Origin: Candidatus Babeliales bacterium
GTDB taxonomy: Bacteria; Babelota; Babeliae; Babelales; JABCYS01
Assembly (NCBI GenBank): GCA_016929235.1
Contig: JAFGJD010000004.1
Location: 256,866-320,865 of the forward strand
DNA: 64,000 nucleotides
Direction of reading: 5' to 3'
In this document: positions 17,266 to 21,182 of the stretch, one piece after another
How the letters are laid out: the number at the start of each line of letters is the position of its first letter
How positions within the stretch are numbered: position 1 is the first letter of the stretch
Position numbers and translations under genes: made by a program
The notes under the pieces: model-generated
What the model saw: only the letters and a program-made list of their open reading frames with translations
What the model was told of the DNA's origin: nothing
Databases searched by the model: none

Positions 17266-18327
17266 ATGTATCATATATCAGTGTTTTTTAAGGAGAAAAT
17301 CCACTTTTTAAATGTTCTTCATTATGTCAGTTTTCGGGCTATGGCGGGGCTTCTTTCGTCGGTGCTTTTCTCATTTCTTCTAGGCAATCGATTTATCAGG
17401 TTTTCGCAAAAAGTTTACAGAAGCAAGGCTCGGGCATGGACTCCAGAGCGTCATCGATCTAAGGATGACATGCCAACTATGGGCGGTCTTTTTATCCTGA
17501 CTACAGTTATAATCAATGTTTTGTTGTGGGCGAATTTGGGACAGGCAAGGGTCTGGTTATTCTTGGCTTGTTTAGTTGGCTACGGTGTGATTGGTTTCTA
17601 TGATGACTGGTCAAAAATAAAACAAAGAAATGGCATGTCCGCGCGTAATAAATTTGTGCTACAAGTGCTACTTGCAGTTGTGTTGATCATTGGATTGATT
17701 TTGTTTGCGCGACTATCTACAACGATAAGCTTTCCATTTTTGAAGTGGTTGAATCCGGATCTTGGATGGGGGTATGTGCCGTGGGCAGTGTTTGTTATGG
17801 TCGCCATGAGTAATGCCGTTAATCTCACAGATGGTCTTGACGGACTTGCGATTGGATCATTGATCTCAACGTTTGCGACGTTTTCTATTGTGGGTTACTT
17901 GGCTGGTCATAGTGGCATGGCAATGTACCTCAATATACCCTTTGCTGATACATCTGAGATGGCAGTGATTGGTGCGATCTTGGTTGGATCATCAATTGGG
18001 TTTTTGTGGTACAACGCGTATCCCGCACAAATCTTTATGGGCGATGTTGGCTCACTTGCGCTAGGTGCTGGATTAGGTTTAATAGCGCTCATGGCAAAGC
18101 AAGAACTTCTTTTGCCAATTGCTGGAGGAGTGTTTGTTGTTGAAACACTTTCAGTGATTGTACAAGTTGTTTCGTTTAAATATTTGGGGAGACGTATTTT
18201 CCGCATGGCGCCAATCCACCATCACTTCGAATTGAAGGGGTGGCAGGAATCCAAGATTACTGTGCGTTTTGCAATTATTACGTTGTTACTGTGTTTGGTG
18301 TCGTTGATGACTCTGAAGATGCGGTAG
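17266..18327 (+). CDS. mraY: phospho-N-acetylmuramoyl-pentapeptide transferase
   Basis: NAVNLTDGLDGLA, GDVGSLALGAGLG and PIHHHFE motifs. GAGGTGA Shine-Dalgarno sequence. The final ~100 nt are repeated at 21090..21182. Confidence 0.95.
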   Translation: MYHISVFFKEKIHFLNVLHYVSFRAMAGLLSSVLFSFLLGNRFIRFSQKVYRSKARAWTPERHRSKDDMPTMGGLFILTTVIINVLLWANLGQARVWLFLACLVGYGVIGFYDDWSKIKQRNGMSARNKFVLQVLLAVVLIIGLILFARLSTTISFPFLKWLNPDLGWGYVPWAVFVMVAMSNAVNLTDGLDGLAIGSLISTFATFSIVGYLAGHSGMAMYLNIPFADTSEMAVIGAILVGSSIGFLWYNAYPAQIFMGDVGSLALGAGLGLIALMAKQELLLPIAGGVFVVETLSVIVQVVSFKYLGRRIFRMAPIHHHFELKGWQESKITVRFAIITLLLCLVSLMTLKMR

Positions 18328-18338
18328 GCTGTTTATAC

Positions 18339-19309
18339 TCATTTAGATTGTCTTTCGCTGTAATCCTGTAACAGTTGGATAAGCTTGGTAGAACGTCTTA
18401 AAGTCCTTGCAATATCTAATGGGGTCCCATCTCTTACATCTCCTTCACAAACAGAGGCGCCATGTTGTAAAAGAAGCTTGATAAGCCTTAAAGGTCAGTT
18501 TTCTCTACGAATTGCAGCGATGAGAGGTGTCTCTGCGTATATATCTCTTGCATTTGGGCTTGCTCCACGTTCGAGTAGAGTTCTAACAACAGCTTCCATG
18601 CTAGGTGTTGAGAATCGAGCCGATTTAATAGCGCGATGTAGTGGGGTGACTCCTTGCCATATTGCTCCAAGCATCGGGGGTCTGTGGTGATAGCCAATAT
18701 CGGTTCTAGCACCGTGTCGAAGCAGTAATGATACCATTTTTCTGATCCCATTTCTGCTGCAAGACCTAAGGCAGAATCCCCTTCCCGGTTAATTGGAGCG
18801 TTGGGACTGACGCCGGCTTGTAATAAAATTTGCATAAAATCATGATGATCTTGGGTCTGTGGTCCATCAGCTTTTATGGGCCCGTCATCTTGTTTCATAA
18901 TCATACTGAGCGCTGTTCTTCTTCTTCCATCTACTTCGTTTACTAATGTTGCATCATGTTCTAGCAATAAGCGGGCTACCTGAGCTTGCTCTCTTGCCTC
19001 TGTAGAAACCCAGAGCGTGCCGAACGAGCTATCTGTGGCGCTATGCAGAGGTGTTCTTCCGAGAGAACATTTTTTCTTAGGATCTGCTTCATTCCTCAAA
19101 AGAAGTCGAGCCGTCTTATGGTCTCCACGACGAGCTGCGATATACAGAGCTGTTTCACCTCCTTCATTTTGTTCATTGACACTCGAAGGTGAGGTGGCAA
19201 GAATCCGTTCTACTTCAGCTCGATCTTGCTGTTCAACCGCTTCGTGAATAGGCCTACTCAGGATAGTGAACGAGAATCCAAGCGTAACAAGAATAGCTGT
19301 AATATCCAT
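18339..19309 (-). pseudogene. ankyrin-repeat gene disrupted by a frameshift and an in-frame TGA
   Basis: Ankyrin reading continues from the 335-aa ORF frame (..GDSALGLAAEMGSEK) into the 80-aa ORF frame (MVSLLLRHGARTDI..) across the run at 18737-18741 (A5 on the coding strand). After TGA at 18495-18497, the same frame continues as PLRLIKLLLQHGASVCEGDVRDGTPLDIA, up to TGA at 18339-18341. Confidence 0.7.
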
Positions 19310-19346
19310 ATGCTTCACGATAGTGTACTCCTCTTGGTCAGGTTGT

Positions 19347-20903
19347 TTATGCTTGATCCCCACCATTTTCTCGTAACAATTGGATGAGAGGCTCGCATTT
19401 TCTTGCTTCTGCTGTTTGAAGTGGAGTAGATCCTGAAAAGTCCGGTAGGGTGGCGTTGGCCCCATATCGTATGAGAAGAGCCGAAATTTTTGCAAAATTA
19501 CTCAAAACCGCGCCGAGTAGAGGAGTCCTTCCACAATATCCTCCTTGAATTATTTGTGCGTTAGGGTTCGCACCGCGTTCAAGAAGAAGCTGAACGAGGG
19601 GTAGCCTTTCTTCCTCTGTAAATCCTACGGAGCGGCTACGGTTATGGGACCAAACGGCAAGATGTAAGGCGGTTTGTCCCATTAACGTTCCTTCATCTAC
19701 CCGTGCTCCGTGTTCTAAGAGAGCTTGTGCTAAGGATACTTGATTTGTCTCTACTGCATAATGTAAAGGTGGGTGGCCCTCAAAGTCTGGGATATTTGGA
19801 TCCGCGTCATGCTCTAATAGAAGTGTCCCCATGGTCTGGCATTCTTCGGGTGTAGCAAAACAGTTTCCGTTGTACAGATTTTGAAAGGCTACAACGTGTA
19901 AAGGCGTTGCTCCTCCAAAGCGAGAATTCAAAGCACGAAACTTTCCTTCGTCTCTTTTCACGTTAGGGTTTGCGCCTTTTCTTAGCAGCATTCGAAGGAT
20001 ATTTATTTTATTTTTTCCATCCACAATGATGTCATGAAGAAGTAGTTGAGTATCTGCCGGATCAGCTCTTTCTAATAAATATTCAGTTAATGGCTCATGT
20101 CCCTTTATTACTGCAAGATGAAGTGGGGTCTGACCATCTCTATTCCGCTGTTGCATGTCGGCGTGGTACTCTAGTAGAAGCGCGGCTGTTAATACATGCC
20201 CTGCCTCTGCAGCGTTATGAAGAGACGTTTTTTGAAAAAAACCTGGTGCATCTACGAGCGCACCGTTTTCCAGTAGGAATCTTGCATAGGATGTGTTTCC
20301 ATATTTTGCCGCTTCGTGAAGTGGCGTGTCTTGAACCATGGCCCCCGCATTAACATCGGCACCACGAGCCAAAAATTCTTTTGCTAGAGCGCACTGTCCT
20401 TCCTCTTGTTTGACATGGTGCATGGTGATGGAATGCAATAGCGTGCAGCCATGGTTATCTTTTGTGGCCACAGAGGCACCACGGTGCATCAATAACAGGC
20501 ACTCAGGAGTACGGAGCCATATTGACATAGATTGAAGGGGAGTGTTTCCGTAATTGTCGCGAGCTTCAATATCAGCACCATTCTCGAGAAGAGGGACCAT
20601 GTGTTTTGCTTGAGCATTATGCAGGGGGGTTTTCCCATGCTTGTCTCTCGCATTAACGTTCGCACCGTTTGCTATCAACAGCCTCGTAATTTCAACGGGT
20701 TGATGTATAACCGCTATATGAAGTGGTGTTTCGCCGTCTTCATTCTGTTCATTAAGCTCCTTAGGGTTGCGAGTGGAGACGGAGGAAATATATGATGCTA
20801 GCACTTCCGATTCTCCCCGCCTCACAAAGTCATGAATATCCGTAGCCAAACCTAGATGTGAGGAAAACATTGTCCACAGGACAAGTACACTTCTTTTATA
20901 CAT
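19347..20903 (-). CDS. secreted multi-ankyrin-repeat protein
   Basis: More than 10 ankyrin repeats (G.TPLH.A...G....V..LL..GA). ATG 20903 is preceded by GGGAG at 8-nt spacing and gives signal-like MYKRSVLVLWTMFSSHLGLA. Confidence 0.85.
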   Translation of the reverse strand: MYKRSVLVLWTMFSSHLGLATDIHDFVRRGESEVLASYISSVSTRNPKELNEQNEDGETPLHIAVIHQPVEITRLLIANGANVNARDKHGKTPLHNAQAKHMVPLLENGADIEARDNYGNTPLQSMSIWLRTPECLLLMHRGASVATKDNHGCTLLHSITMHHVKQEEGQCALAKEFLARGADVNAGAMVQDTPLHEAAKYGNTSYARFLLENGALVDAPGFFQKTSLHNAAEAGHVLTAALLLEYHADMQQRNRDGQTPLHLAVIKGHEPLTEYLLERADPADTQLLLHDIIVDGKNKINILRMLLRKGANPNVKRDEGKFRALNSRFGGATPLHVVAFQNLYNGNCFATPEECQTMGTLLLEHDADPNIPDFEGHPPLHYAVETNQVSLAQALLEHGARVDEGTLMGQTALHLAVWSHNRSRSVGFTEEERLPLVQLLLERGANPNAQIIQGGYCGRTPLLGAVLSNFAKISALLIRYGANATLPDFSGSTPLQTAEARKCEPLIQLLRENGGDQA

Positions 20904-21089
20904 TATAACGACTCCCTTGATTACAAGCATACATTTTCGCGGGACAGGGTATCACACGGAGTATGCCGTGTCTTGTGGGATGGCCTCGGGGGTGGATTAT
21001 AGTTTACTGTAGGAGCTATCAGCCACGTAGATAATTGTTATTTCCAAAATCAGAAAAAAGACGCAATTATTTTCGGGTAACTTCCGGAT

Positions 21090-21182
21090 ATAATTGCTGG
21101 CAGTAACTAAGATCACTGTTCGTGTGCAATTATTACACTATTGCTGTGTCTGATGTCGCTGATGACTCTGAAGATGCGTTAG
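21090..21182 (+). pseudogene. degenerate duplicate of the mraY 3' end
   Basis: 21126-21182 aligns without gaps to 18271-18327 (49/57 identical). It translates to AIITLLLCLMSLMTLKMR* versus AIITLLLCLVSLMTLKMR*. Similarity continues upstream (KITVR) but with 1-nt indels and a TAA. Confidence 0.65.

What the first reader, a model, noticed from the sequence alone, without database searches (positions are those of the whole stretch)
18228..21182. Displaced second copy of the mraY 3' end brackets an ankyrin island, and the copies differ almost only at synonymous sites
**The two copies.** The last 57 nt of mraY (18271-18327) recur at 21126-21182 without gaps, with 49/57 identical.
- In the mraY frame, 7 of the 8 differences are synonymous: ACG/ACA, TTG/CTA, TTA/TTG, TTG/CTG twice, and CGG/CGT.
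- The translations are AIITLLLCLVSLMTLKMR* and AIITLLLCLMSLMTLKMR*.
- Just upstream, KITVR is also preserved with synonymous changes (ATT/ATC, GTG/GTT).
- Beyond that, copy B acquires 1-nt indels and a TAA.

**Interpretation.** A synonymous-biased pattern means both copies evolved as functional mraY ends, presumably in different genomes, before being juxtaposed. This is what is seen when an integrating element supplies a new 3' end to its target gene and displaces the native one. It is not what neutral decay of an in-situ duplicate would produce.

**Cargo.** The 2.8-kb segment between the copies carries only two secreted ankyrin genes and no integrase. The gene beyond copy B, ank 21133..21741, uses the antisense of the remnant for its last ~16 codons.
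Basis: seen in the sequence. Interest (0 to 1): 0.8.

Follow-up and report, generated by a model that had tools for sequence, protein, structure and literature searches.

The report
Displaced mraY tail flanking ankyrin-gene insertion
In an uncultured amoeba-associated bacterium (Babeliales), a 2.9-kb insert of two ankyrin genes next to the essential cell-wall gene mraY is flanked by a working and a displaced copy of that gene's end, a layout known from elements such as E. coli e14 but here with no recombinase in sight.

Summary
The last 57 nt of mraY (18271-18327) recur at 21126-21182 with 49/57 identity. With two 1-nt gaps the match extends to about 85 nt. It is the only such pair in the window and is not an assembly artefact.

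Seven of the eight differences are synonymous in the mraY frame (dS 0.82, dN 0.025). All eight are non-synonymous in the antisense frame used by the next gene.

The organism is a Candidatus Babeliales MAG whose nearest MraY relatives are only 65-67% identical. In relatives, mraY is followed by a convergent amino-acid permease, often overlapping it, or by various lineage-specific genes. The ankyrin genes are therefore an insertion at a recurrent hot spot. One relative (L168) has the same layout independently: a mraY-tail direct repeat flanking a J-domain gene.

An in-situ duplicate with a neutral copy B gives P of about 0.006-0.09.

The 64-kb window holds no integrase, transposase or terminal inverted repeats. 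One of the two "cargo" genes is a pseudogene.

Best reading: a Campbell-type insertion that brought its own mraY end, like e14 in icd or an integrase-less CIME. It is a new member of a known kind, of moderate interest.

The parts
17266..18327 (+). mraY (phospho-N-acetylmuramoyl-pentapeptide transferase, 353 aa, intact)
   Evidence: ORF. Pfam PF00953. Identical to NCBI MBN1549379.1 from Candidatus Babeliales.
18241..18327 (+). Copy A: the functional mraY tail. The strict ungapped repeat is 18271-18327. A 19-nt run identical to copy B (TGATGACTCTGAAGATGCG) lies just before the last two codons and is a candidate crossover core (inferred).
18339..19366 (-). Ankyrin pseudogene ('ank292'). It has an N-terminal hydrophobic leader and ANK repeats. 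There is a frameshift at a T5/A5 run near 18736-18746 and an in-frame TGA at 18495-18497. The original stop is at 18339-18341, 11 nt after the mraY stop.
   Evidence: Three-frame translation. The out-of-frame 80-aa stretch hits Pfam Ank at E = 5.4e-9. The 5' part hits Ank_2 at 9e-18.
19347..20903 (-). ank527/518: intact ankyrin-repeat protein with an N-terminal hydrophobic leader (NCBI MBN1549381.1)
   Evidence: Pfam Ank at 9e-63. No homologue above 38% identity among 5.8e9 proteins. Accession.
20956..20986 (-). 31-nt upstream motif of ank527, shared with the region upstream of ank202
   Evidence: 2 matches in the window, 0 expected.
21046..21099 (-). Terminator-like hairpin plus U-run downstream of ank202, on the minus strand. 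It abuts the left edge of copy B.
   Evidence: RNA fold (z = -2.6). Not flagged by the consensus scan. Function is inferred.
21098..21182 (+). Copy B: the displaced mraY tail relic. From 21126 to 21182 it is ungapped at 86% identity. From 21098 to 21125 it carries GAA>TAA and two 1-nt deletions. It has no usable start and is not an ORF.
21133..21741 (-). ank202: a small ankyrin-like membrane or secreted protein (NCBI MBN1549382.1). Its last 16 codons and stop are the antisense of copy B.
   Evidence: ORF. Pfam Ank_4 at 2.6e-5, above the cut-off. Tail NASSESSATSDTAIV*. Accession.
21823..21853 (-). Second copy of the 31-nt upstream motif, upstream of ank202
22082..24725 (-). Two tandem amino-acid permease paralogues, 42% identical. 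In relatives the single permease is mraY's conserved convergent neighbour.
   Evidence: synteny.

Best explanation
**What happened.** A segment of about 2.86 kb carrying two tandem ankyrin genes with N-terminal leaders was inserted into the last 85 nt or so of the essential gene mraY. The topology is that of a single-crossover (Campbell-type) recombination between the chromosome and DNA that carried its own copy of the mraY end.

**Result.**
- One copy (A) is fused to the body of mraY and keeps the gene intact.
- The other copy (B) is displaced 2,855 nt downstream.
- Copy B is no longer translated as MraY and has begun to decay at its 5' side: a nonsense codon and two 1-nt deletions.
- The next minus-strand gene (ank202) reads through copy B in antisense for its last 16 codons and its stop.

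**Origin of the two ends.** They had diverged at synonymous sites while each served as a functional MraY C-terminus. They therefore came from two different but closely related Babeliales genomes or alleles. Both share four derived residues that no sampled relative has.

**Shown.** The repeat, the insertion relative to other Babeliales, the synonymous-biased divergence, and the absence of a recombinase gene.

**Inferred.** The circular intermediate, the foreign origin of one tail, the crossover within the shared 19-nt run or the 57-nt tail, and the enzyme. The enzyme could be an integrase lost from the island or acting in trans (a CIME-like state), or RecA acting on the short homology.

**Why duplication was needed.** In relatives the convergent neighbour often overlaps the mraY tail. 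Only insertions that duplicate the tail leave both genes intact, which explains why such events survive at this junction.
For: **The repeat is real.** It is unique and significant and present in two assemblies.

**It is an insertion at a hot spot.**
- In L082, L083, L084 and L170 the permease overlaps mraY by 24, 14, 44 and 15 nt.
- L002, L003, L166, L167, L168 and the P0068 contig each carry different lineage-specific genes at the same junction.

**Divergence pattern.**
- Nei-Gojobori gives S = 14, N = 40, 7 synonymous and 1 non-synonymous difference, dS 0.82 and dN 0.025. In the antisense frame the counts are 0 synonymous and 8 non-synonymous.
- No difference lies at second codon positions.
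- A model with both copies constrained gives P = 0.43-0.69. The in-situ model gives 0.006-0.065.

**Close kinship of the two tails.** A and B share A1, T4, L6 and S11, against GIISLI..A in the sampled relatives (L132 also has A1) (tails also).

**Boundary.** Similarity ends at the stop codon, as expected if only the coding part is conserved between xenologues.

**Tandem duplication excluded.** Only the tail is repeated and the flanks share no DNA similarity.

**Independent second case.** In L168, direct repeats 7006-7107 and 8095-8199 flank a 987-nt insert holding one J-domain gene. Its 88%-identical relative L002 lacks both.

**Known precedent for the topology.** e14 in icd leaves the icdC relic (PMC13626634, PMC6379469).
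Against: - No integrase, transposase or other recombinase domain was found in the island or in any ORF of 130 aa or more in the 64-kb window.
- There are no terminal inverted repeats.
- No donor or close relative exists in the databases.
- The statistical case rests on 8-13 substitutions and was ascertained post hoc. With a strong transition bias the in-situ model is only marginally rejected, with P up to 0.09.
- The three ankyrin genes are distant local paralogues, 28-36% identical over the N-terminal 80 aa, and two share an upstream motif. This hints at local family growth and not at import.
- In L168 the repeat runs 42 nt past the stop codon and its boundaries differ from those in the window. 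No conserved att site is evident.
- GC and GC3 of the island are not distinctive.
Confidence: 0.5

Rival explanations
1. **In-situ duplicative event.** The mraY tail overlapped, or abutted, its convergent neighbour. It was duplicated locally when ankyrin genes were inserted or expanded at the junction, by illegitimate recombination or a duplication whose second unit was later lost. Since then copy A has accumulated synonymous changes under selection. Copy B has been partly frozen because it became the 3' coding end of ank202.
For: - Overlapping convergent neighbours are the ancestral state. Any local duplication of the neighbour must therefore copy the tail.
- In L084 the permease reads the antisense of the mraY tail in the same frame as ank202.
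- The ankyrin genes on both sides of copy B are distant paralogues and share an upstream motif.
- There is no recombinase and no compositional anomaly.
- With a high transition bias the synonymous excess is only marginal, P = 0.05-0.09.
- The difference in decay between the left and right parts of copy B is not significant (Fisher P = 0.15).
- In L168 the best-kept part of the relic is a terminator hairpin, which selection on function could explain.
Against: - If copy B were neutral, about half of the differences should be non-synonymous. Observed are 1 of 8, or 3 of 13.
- If copy B were constrained by ank202, its free sites (plus-strand codon position 2) should have changed as often as copy A's synonymous sites. 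Observed are 0 against 7 (P = 0.008).
- No DNA similarity follows either tail, so a plain tandem duplication is excluded.
- The ankyrin paralogues are far more diverged (about 30% aa identity) than the tails (86% nt identity). They therefore do not date from the same event.
- The repeat ending exactly at the stop codon would be a coincidence.
Confidence: 0.3
2. **Relic of a second full-length mraY.** A whole extra mraY, either a paralogue or one acquired with the ankyrin genes, coexisted and stayed functional long enough to diverge synonymously. It was then deleted except for its last 85 nt or so.
For: - It explains synonymous-only divergence without needing an att-type mechanism.
- It explains the gradual loss of similarity at the left edge of copy B.
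Against: - It needs long maintenance of two redundant essential genes, followed by a deletion ending just inside the tail.
- No further mraY-like sequence lies upstream of 21079. The upstream-only alignment scores no better than shuffles.
- It would have to have happened twice, in the window and in L168.
- None of the relatives examined shows a second mraY gene in the 12-20 kb of sequence held around mraY.
Confidence: 0.1
3. **Chance similarity, or an assembly or strain-mixture chimera.**
For: The source is a metagenome-assembled genome. Coverage and reads could not be inspected.
Against: - The chance probability is about 2e-15.
- Two assemblies are identical over 13.3 kb, and the longest shared exact run is 19 nt.
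- Copy B is contiguous with degenerate mraY-like sequence and with the ank527 upstream region, so it is not part of an intact mraY allele.
Confidence: 0.02

Closest known systems
e14 element and phage 21 integrated in the E. coli icd gene, with the icdC relic
   Same: - The insert sits inside the 3' end of a housekeeping protein-coding gene.
- The element supplies a substitute 3' end, so the gene stays functional.
- The native end is displaced to the far side of the insert as a short pseudogene (163 bp).
- The two ends differ mostly at synonymous sites, plus conservative replacements (PMC13626634 and PMC6379469).
   Different: - e14 is a 15-kb prophage-like element with its own recombination system and shows demonstrated SOS-induced excision.
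- Here the insert is 2.8 kb, carries only ankyrin genes and no recombinase, and excision is untested.
- The target is mraY, in a different phylum.
CIMEs (cis-mobilizable elements): decayed ICE/IME derivatives at the 3' ends of fda, rpsI, rpmG and rplL in streptococci
   Same: - They are small (1.2-13 kb) and carry cargo only.
- They are flanked by att direct repeats at the 3' end of a protein-coding gene.
- They have no integrase or transfer genes (PMC7563491).
   Different: - CIMEs are recognised by att sites shared with autonomous ICEs or IMEs that use the same target.
- No autonomous partner element that uses the mraY tail was found here, and the Babeliales mobilome is essentially uncharacterised.
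- The repeat boundaries differ between the window and L168.
tRNA- or tmRNA-targeting genomic islands that restore the 3' half of the target gene
   Same: They follow the same logic: attP carries the 3' part of the target, and direct repeats bracket the island.
   Different: The target here is a protein-coding gene, so conservation shows up as synonymous-only divergence. No tRNA lies near the island; the window's only tRNA is at 44918.
Campbell-type single-crossover integration by homologous recombination, as with suicide plasmids carrying a 3' gene fragment
   Same: The topology is identical: the homologous fragment is duplicated on both sides of the insert. One copy is complete and the other truncated at its 5' side.
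   Different: This is a laboratory or RecA-driven process with no dedicated element. A natural role in moving effector genes in Babeliales is speculative. The homology here is short (85-105 nt) and now only 82-86% identical.

Membership tests
Site-specific integrative element that replaces the 3' end of its protein-coding target (e14/phage 21-icd type; ICE/IME at fda, rpsI and similar) | Direct repeats (attL/attR) bracket the insert, and the gene-proximal repeat completes the target ORF | tested here: met
   The repeats are 18241-18327 and 21098-21182, and mraY is intact through copy A.
Site-specific integrative element that replaces the 3' end of its protein-coding target (e14/phage 21-icd type; ICE/IME at fda, rpsI and similar) | A tyrosine or serine recombinase gene inside the element, usually next to one att site | tested here: not met
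   The island holds only an ankyrin pseudogene and ank527. Pfam finds no recombinase domain in any ORF of 130 aa or more in the 64-kb window. The rest of the genome could not be searched.
Site-specific integrative element that replaces the 3' end of its protein-coding target (e14/phage 21-icd type; ICE/IME at fda, rpsI and similar) | The replacement end and the displaced native end differ mainly at synonymous sites | tested here: met
   dS is 0.82 and dN is 0.025, with 7 synonymous differences to 1 non-synonymous. The in-situ alternative gives P = 0.006-0.09.
Site-specific integrative element that replaces the 3' end of its protein-coding target (e14/phage 21-icd type; ICE/IME at fda, rpsI and similar) | An unoccupied site exists in related genomes | tested here: inconclusive
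   All 12 relatives lack the island, and 4 have the permease directly overlapping mraY. The closest relative, however, has only 67% MraY identity.
Site-specific integrative element that replaces the 3' end of its protein-coding target (e14/phage 21-icd type; ICE/IME at fda, rpsI and similar) | An identical core inside the repeats where strand exchange occurs | tested here: inconclusive
   A 19-nt identical run (TGATGACTCTGAAGATGCG) and an 11-nt run (GCAATTATTAC) exist. Nothing shows that they act as a core.
Site-specific integrative element that replaces the 3' end of its protein-coding target (e14/phage 21-icd type; ICE/IME at fda, rpsI and similar) | Excision to a circular form with restoration of a single target end | not testable with these tools
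   This needs the raw reads of SRR13394437 or PCR on the sample.
CIME (integrase-less decayed integrative element) | Flanked by att repeats and lacking all recombination and transfer genes | tested here: met
CIME (integrase-less decayed integrative element) | Its att sites are shared with an autonomous ICE, IME or phage that uses the same target | tested here: not met
   No integrase-bearing element lies at the mraY tail in the 12 relatives. The tail pattern has no hit in viral contigs. The sampling is small.
Transposon or IS insertion with target-site duplication | A short target-site duplication (2-14 bp), terminal inverted repeats and a transposase | tested here: not met
   The repeat is 85 nt and diverged. 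No inverted repeats lie at the island edges and there is no transposase.
Simple tandem duplication | The sequences following each repeat copy are themselves paralogous at the DNA level | tested here: not met
   BLAST of 18328-22081 against the window finds only the tail. The flanking ankyrin proteins share only 28-36% identity over about 80 aa.

The most novel reading that the evidence does not exclude
In Babeliales, the end of the essential gene mraY may serve as a shared landing pad for small cassettes that have no recombinase and carry effector-type genes (ankyrin, J-domain). Each cassette would carry a copy of the mraY tail. It would move between co-infecting relatives by looping out and re-entering through recombination in that tail. 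Selection on mraY would allow only crossovers that restore an intact gene. Two independent occurrences (the window and L168) would be the first glimpses of this effector-exchange system in an uncultured intracellular phylum.
Probability: 0.12. Interest if true: 0.6.

Novelty: new member of a known kind. Interest (0 to 1): 0.35.

Why it matters
Dependentiae/Babeliales are uncultured intracellular bacteria of protists, and their mobile elements are essentially undescribed. Their large repertoires of ankyrin and other eukaryote-like proteins are thought to mediate interaction with the host (PMC4776705).

A tail-duplicating insertion at mraY, seen in two lineages, marks a concrete site where such genes are gained. 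It also suggests exchange between related genomes. A simple automated scan of MAGs for displaced gene-tail relics downstream of mraY could test this.

If the event turns out to be only a local duplication, it still shows how overlapping convergent genes force a duplication of the shared segment whenever something is inserted between them. Either way the principle is already familiar from e14 in icd and from ICEs and CIMEs, so the value lies in the new phylum and target and not in a new mechanism.

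Tried and rejected
1. **Close relatives with and without the island.**
   - The MraY search of 5.8e9 proteins found nothing above 67% identity.
   - The GTDB scan gave only L002 and L003 as Babeliales loci.
   - The single metagenome scan chose generic peptide patterns and returned mostly non-Babeliales loci, so it was unproductive.
2. **Donor search.** ank527 has only generic ankyrin hits of 38% identity or less. A degenerate 53-nt tail pattern had no hit in viral contigs.
3. **Recombinase search.** Pfam on 47 window ORFs found none.
4. **A third or older relic next to the permease, or elsewhere in the window.** None was found.
5. **Extension of copy B upstream of about 21079.** It is not distinguishable from shuffles. 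That stretch instead forms a terminator-like hairpin.
6. **Polarising the eight changes with outgroups.** This is impossible, because synonymous sites are saturated in relatives with 65-67% MraY identity.
7. **Compositional foreignness.** GC and GC3 of the island are ordinary.
8. **Mosaic structure of copy B.** The left part looks more decayed than the right, but the difference is not significant (Fisher P = 0.15).
9. **Tandem-duplication, transposon and assembly-artefact readings.** All were rejected.
10. **One wasted look-up.** P0006 turned out to be L002 itself.

Full report
**1.

- Reading the sequence and aligning it shows that 18271-18327, the last 18 codons and the stop of the 353-aa mraY ORF (17266-18327), recur at 21126-21182 with 49/57 identical bases and no gap.
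- The repeat finder finds the same pair on its own: 58 nt, 86% identity, spacing 2855.
- With two 1-nt gaps the match extends to 18241-18327 against 21098-21182. BLAST of the island against the whole window gives E = 3.7e-17 and no third copy.
- The chance of 49/57 anywhere in the window is about 2e-15.
- KITVR just upstream is kept with two synonymous changes. Beyond that, copy B has GAA>TAA and two 1-nt deletions.
- Similarity ends at the stop codon. Upstream of about 21079 it cannot be told from shuffles.
- The ORF 21133..21741 on the minus strand overlaps copy B by 50 nt. It takes its last 16 codons (NASSESSATSDTAIV) and its stop from the antisense of the relic.
- A Logan assembly of run SRR13394437 matches window 15014-28327 base for base. 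The longest exact run shared by the copies is 19 nt, so a graph-collapse artefact is not credible.

**2. What the locus is**

- The MraY protein is identical to NCBI MBN1549379.1 from a Candidatus Babeliales (Dependentiae/TM6) MAG, on a 321,671-bp contig.
- The gene order in the window is:
  - a hypothetical gene (-);
  - mraY (+);
  - an ankyrin gene (-);
  - ank527 (-);
  - copy B;
  - ank202 (-);
  - two amino-acid permeases (-);
  - a hypothetical gene, then SpoU methylase, TGT and Vut_1, all on the minus strand.
The gene next to mraY is a pseudogene.
  - Its ANK repeats continue in another frame after a T5/A5 run near 18736-18746.
  - They then pass an in-frame TGA at 18495-18497 and end at 18339-18341, only 11 nt after the mraY stop.
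  - The out-of-frame stretch hits Pfam Ank at E = 5.4e-9.
- ank527 is intact and has no homologue above 38% identity anywhere.
- All three ankyrin proteins begin with a hydrophobic leader and share 28-36% identity over their first 80 residues or so. 'Secreted' is plausible but was not tested with a predictor.

**3. Comparison with relatives**

No MraY closer than 67% identity exists among 5.8 billion proteins, so a true sister genome is not available. Twelve Babeliales loci could still be examined.

- In L082, L083, L084 and L170, mraY is followed directly by the convergent permease. Its 3' end overlaps the mraY tail by 24, 14, 44 and 15 nt.
- In L084 the permease reads the antisense of the tail in the same frame as ank202 does here ('NASS...').
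- In the other loci the same junction holds different lineage-specific genes:
  - one orphan ORF in L002, L003 and L167;
  - a 534-aa ankyrin protein in L166;
  - five small genes in L168;
  - a 47-aa fragment in the P0068 contig;
  - a gene-free 618-nt gap in L169.
- L085 has a different neighbour.
- The ankyrin genes of the window are therefore an insertion into a junction that repeatedly accepts accessory genes.
- The tails of copies A and B share four residues (A1, T4, L6, S11). The first is otherwise seen only in L132 and the other three in no relative (tails also). The two copies therefore separated well inside this lineage.

**4. How strong is the synonymous bias?**

- Nei-Gojobori counts for the 18 codons are S = 14 and N = 40, with 7 synonymous and 1 non-synonymous difference. 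That gives dS 0.82 and dN 0.025.
- In the antisense (ank202) frame all eight differences are non-synonymous. None lies at second codon positions.
Seven of the eight changes are transitions and the tail is Leu-rich, so 25-38% of random mutations there are synonymous.
- If copy A accepts only synonymous changes and copy B drifts, the probability of seeing at least 7 of 8 synonymous is:
  - 0.006-0.012 with no transition bias;
  - 0.042-0.065 with a sixteen-fold bias.
- If both copies are constrained, the probability is 0.43-0.69.
- Adding the upstream part of the relic gives 10 synonymous and 3 non-synonymous substitutions plus 2 deletions, with P = 0.008-0.09.
- If copy B were instead held by selection on the ank202 tail, its free sites (plus-strand position 2, minus-strand position 3) should have changed about as often as copy A's synonymous sites. 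The count is 0 against 7 (P = 0.008).
- The data thus favour 'both ends evolved as MraY ends' by roughly one order of magnitude. This rests on few sites, and the region was chosen because of this very pattern.
- A post-hoc oddity concerns the rare Leu codon CTG. It makes up 10% of Leu codons in housekeeping genes of the window and 1 of 44 in the mraY body. Copy B uses it in 4 of 6 Leu codons and copy A in 2 of 6.

**5. What is missing for an integrating element**

- The island has no room for an integrase.
- Pfam finds no recombinase or transposase in any ORF of 130 aa or more in the 64-kb window.
- There are no inverted repeats at the island edges.
- The only tRNA is 23 kb away.
- GC and GC3 are unremarkable.
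- The tail pattern is absent from viral contigs.

**6. A second, independent case**

- Scanning the relatives for a displaced copy of their own mraY tail gave nothing in eleven loci (one weak, unchecked match in L169) and a clear hit in L168 (ERZ25039604 contig_29756).
- There, 7006-7107 repeats at 8095-8199 with score 57, against a null maximum of 21.
- The relic translates as FAIIVLIHPRLLPLLTLKMR*, against FGIISLVLCLLALLTLKMR* in the gene.
- Its last eight codons differ only by three synonymous changes. The part further 5' is decayed and has indels.
- In L168 the repeat runs on for 42 nt past the stop codon through a terminator hairpin, at 41/44 identity over the 44 nt that begin with the stop codon's last two bases.
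- Between the repeats lies a 987-nt insert with one leader-bearing J-domain protein (Pfam DnaJ 9e-11).
- L002 has an MraY 88% identical to that of L168 and lacks both the insert and the relic.
- The layout therefore recurs, but with different repeat boundaries and different cargo.

**7. Interpretation**

- A direct repeat of a gene's end on both sides of an insert, with the proximal copy completing the gene, is the topology left by single-crossover (Campbell-type) integration of DNA that carries a copy of that end.
- This reading is combined with three further points:
  - the synonymous-biased divergence;
  - the stop-codon boundary;
  - the lack of any other repeated DNA.
- Together these make the best explanation that the two ankyrin genes arrived together with an mraY tail from a closely related genome or allele.
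- Which tail is native cannot be decided.
- The enzyme is unknown. The island may be a decayed, integrase-less remnant, or the short homology may have been used by general recombination.
- The neighbour often overlaps the mraY tail. Only insertions that duplicate the tail keep both genes intact, so survivorship alone can explain why tail-duplicating events are the ones seen at this hot spot.
- The main rival is a purely local duplication followed by divergence.
  - In its favour are the distant paralogy of the ankyrin genes on both sides of the relic, their shared 31-nt upstream motif, the absence of a recombinase, and the marginal P values under strong transition bias.
  - Against it are the deficit of changes at sites that should be free in copy B, and the fact that the paralogues are far older than the tails.
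- I put the two readings at about 0.5 and 0.3.

**8. Relation to what is known**

- The closest described case is e14, and phage 21 (from my own knowledge), in the E. coli icd gene.
  - The element provides the terminal codons of icd.
  - The native 163-bp end is left as the pseudogene icdC on the far side.
  - The two ends differ by synonymous changes and two conservative replacements.
  - Excision rebuilds a hybrid gene (PMC13626634 and PMC6379469).
- Integrase-less CIMEs of 1.2-13 kb, flanked by att repeats at the 3' ends of fda, rpsI, rpmG and rplL in streptococci, are the closest match for an island without a recombinase (PMC7563491).
- Membership in either family is not established here.
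  - The recombinase criterion was tested and not met.
  - No autonomous partner element was found.
  - Excision could not be tested.
- A full-text search found no paper that describes mraY as an attachment site.
- The comparative TM6 paper consulted mentions ankyrin repeats but never integrases, transposases or mobile elements.

**9. Verdict**

- The feature is real and correctly described.
- The feature is best filed as a new example, in a new phylum and at a new target gene, of the well-known 'replacement 3' end' insertion layout, with the mechanism unresolved.
- Interest is moderate. The most useful follow-ups are read-level evidence for excision and a systematic scan of Babeliales MAGs for mraY-tail relics.

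Noticed in passing
window 18339-19366 (-): The ankyrin gene next to mraY is a pseudogene. It has a frameshift at a T5/A5 run near 18736-18746 and an in-frame TGA at 18495-18497. Its original stop lies 11 nt after the mraY stop. Gene callers report only the 292-aa 5' part.
   Followed up: yes
L168 7006-7107 and 8095-8199: A different Babeliales genome (ERZ25039604 contig_29756) has its own mraY-tail direct repeat. The tail is decayed, while the repeat's last 44 nt, including a terminator hairpin, are 41/44 identical. The repeats flank a 987-nt insert with one J-domain gene. The 88%-identical relative L002 lacks both.
   Followed up: partly
L082, L083, L084, L170 (mraY/permease junction); L002, L003, L166, L167, L168, L169: In Babeliales, mraY and the convergent amino-acid permease overlap by 14-44 nt in some genomes. 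In others the same junction holds different lineage-specific genes: orphans, a 534-aa ankyrin protein, and J-domain and other small proteins. It is a recurrent insertion hot spot.
   Followed up: partly
window 20956-20986 (-) and 21823-21853 (-): A 31-nt motif (AGGCCnTnnCAnAAGACACGGCnnACTnCGT) occurs upstream of both ank527 and ank202 and nowhere else in the window (0 expected). It contains a CACGG...CCGTG inverted pair, and the ank202 copy overlaps a promoter-like match (21841-21813). It may be a shared regulatory or leader element of this ankyrin family.
   Followed up: partly
window 21046-21099 (-): An AT-rich hairpin (GCAAUUAU...AUAAUUGC) followed by a U-run lies on the minus strand just downstream of ank202's stop. 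It looks like a terminator and occupies the stretch that looked like weak mraY homology at the left edge of copy B.
   Followed up: partly
window 21126-21179 versus 17266-18270: Copy B uses the rare Leu codon CTG in 4 of 6 Leu codons. CTG makes up 10% of Leu codons in the window's housekeeping genes and 1 of 44 in the mraY body. Copy A has 2 of 6. The nominal P is 0.001, but the test is post hoc.
   Followed up: partly
window 22082-24725 (-): There are two tandem amino-acid permease paralogues, only 42% identical to each other. All relatives examined have one. This is an old local duplication next to the ankyrin array.
   Followed up: partly
L084 8019-8062 (-): The permease of this relative ends with ...NASSASLRQSSTR*, read from the antisense of the mraY tail in the same frame in which ank202 reads copy B (NASSESS...). 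The Ser-rich tails are simply the antisense of LTLKMR.
   Followed up: yes
window 31322-34507 (+) and 40446-41678 (+): Two leucine-rich-repeat proteins (1061 aa and 410 aa) are further eukaryote-like, effector-type genes in the window.
   Followed up: no
window 3782-5344 (-) and 5892-7454 (-): Two ORFs 71 nt apart, separated by a 160-aa ORF (5416-5898) that overlaps the second by 7 nt, are both exactly 520 aa and have no Pfam match. They may be paralogues; they were not compared.
   Followed up: no
L169 8066-8683 and 11537-11634: This relative has a 618-nt stretch with no called gene after mraY. It also has a weak match of its mraY 3' region 3.5 kb downstream (score 23 against a null maximum of 19). 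The match was not examined.
   Followed up: no
window 56534-56884 (-) and 44918-45011 (+): RNase P RNA (class A, 226 bits) and a tRNA-Ser (CGA) are the only Rfam or ARAGORN hits in the window. Two ORFs of the mechanical list, 56486-56959 (+) and 56878-57351 (-), overlap the RNase P gene and are probably spurious.
   Followed up: no
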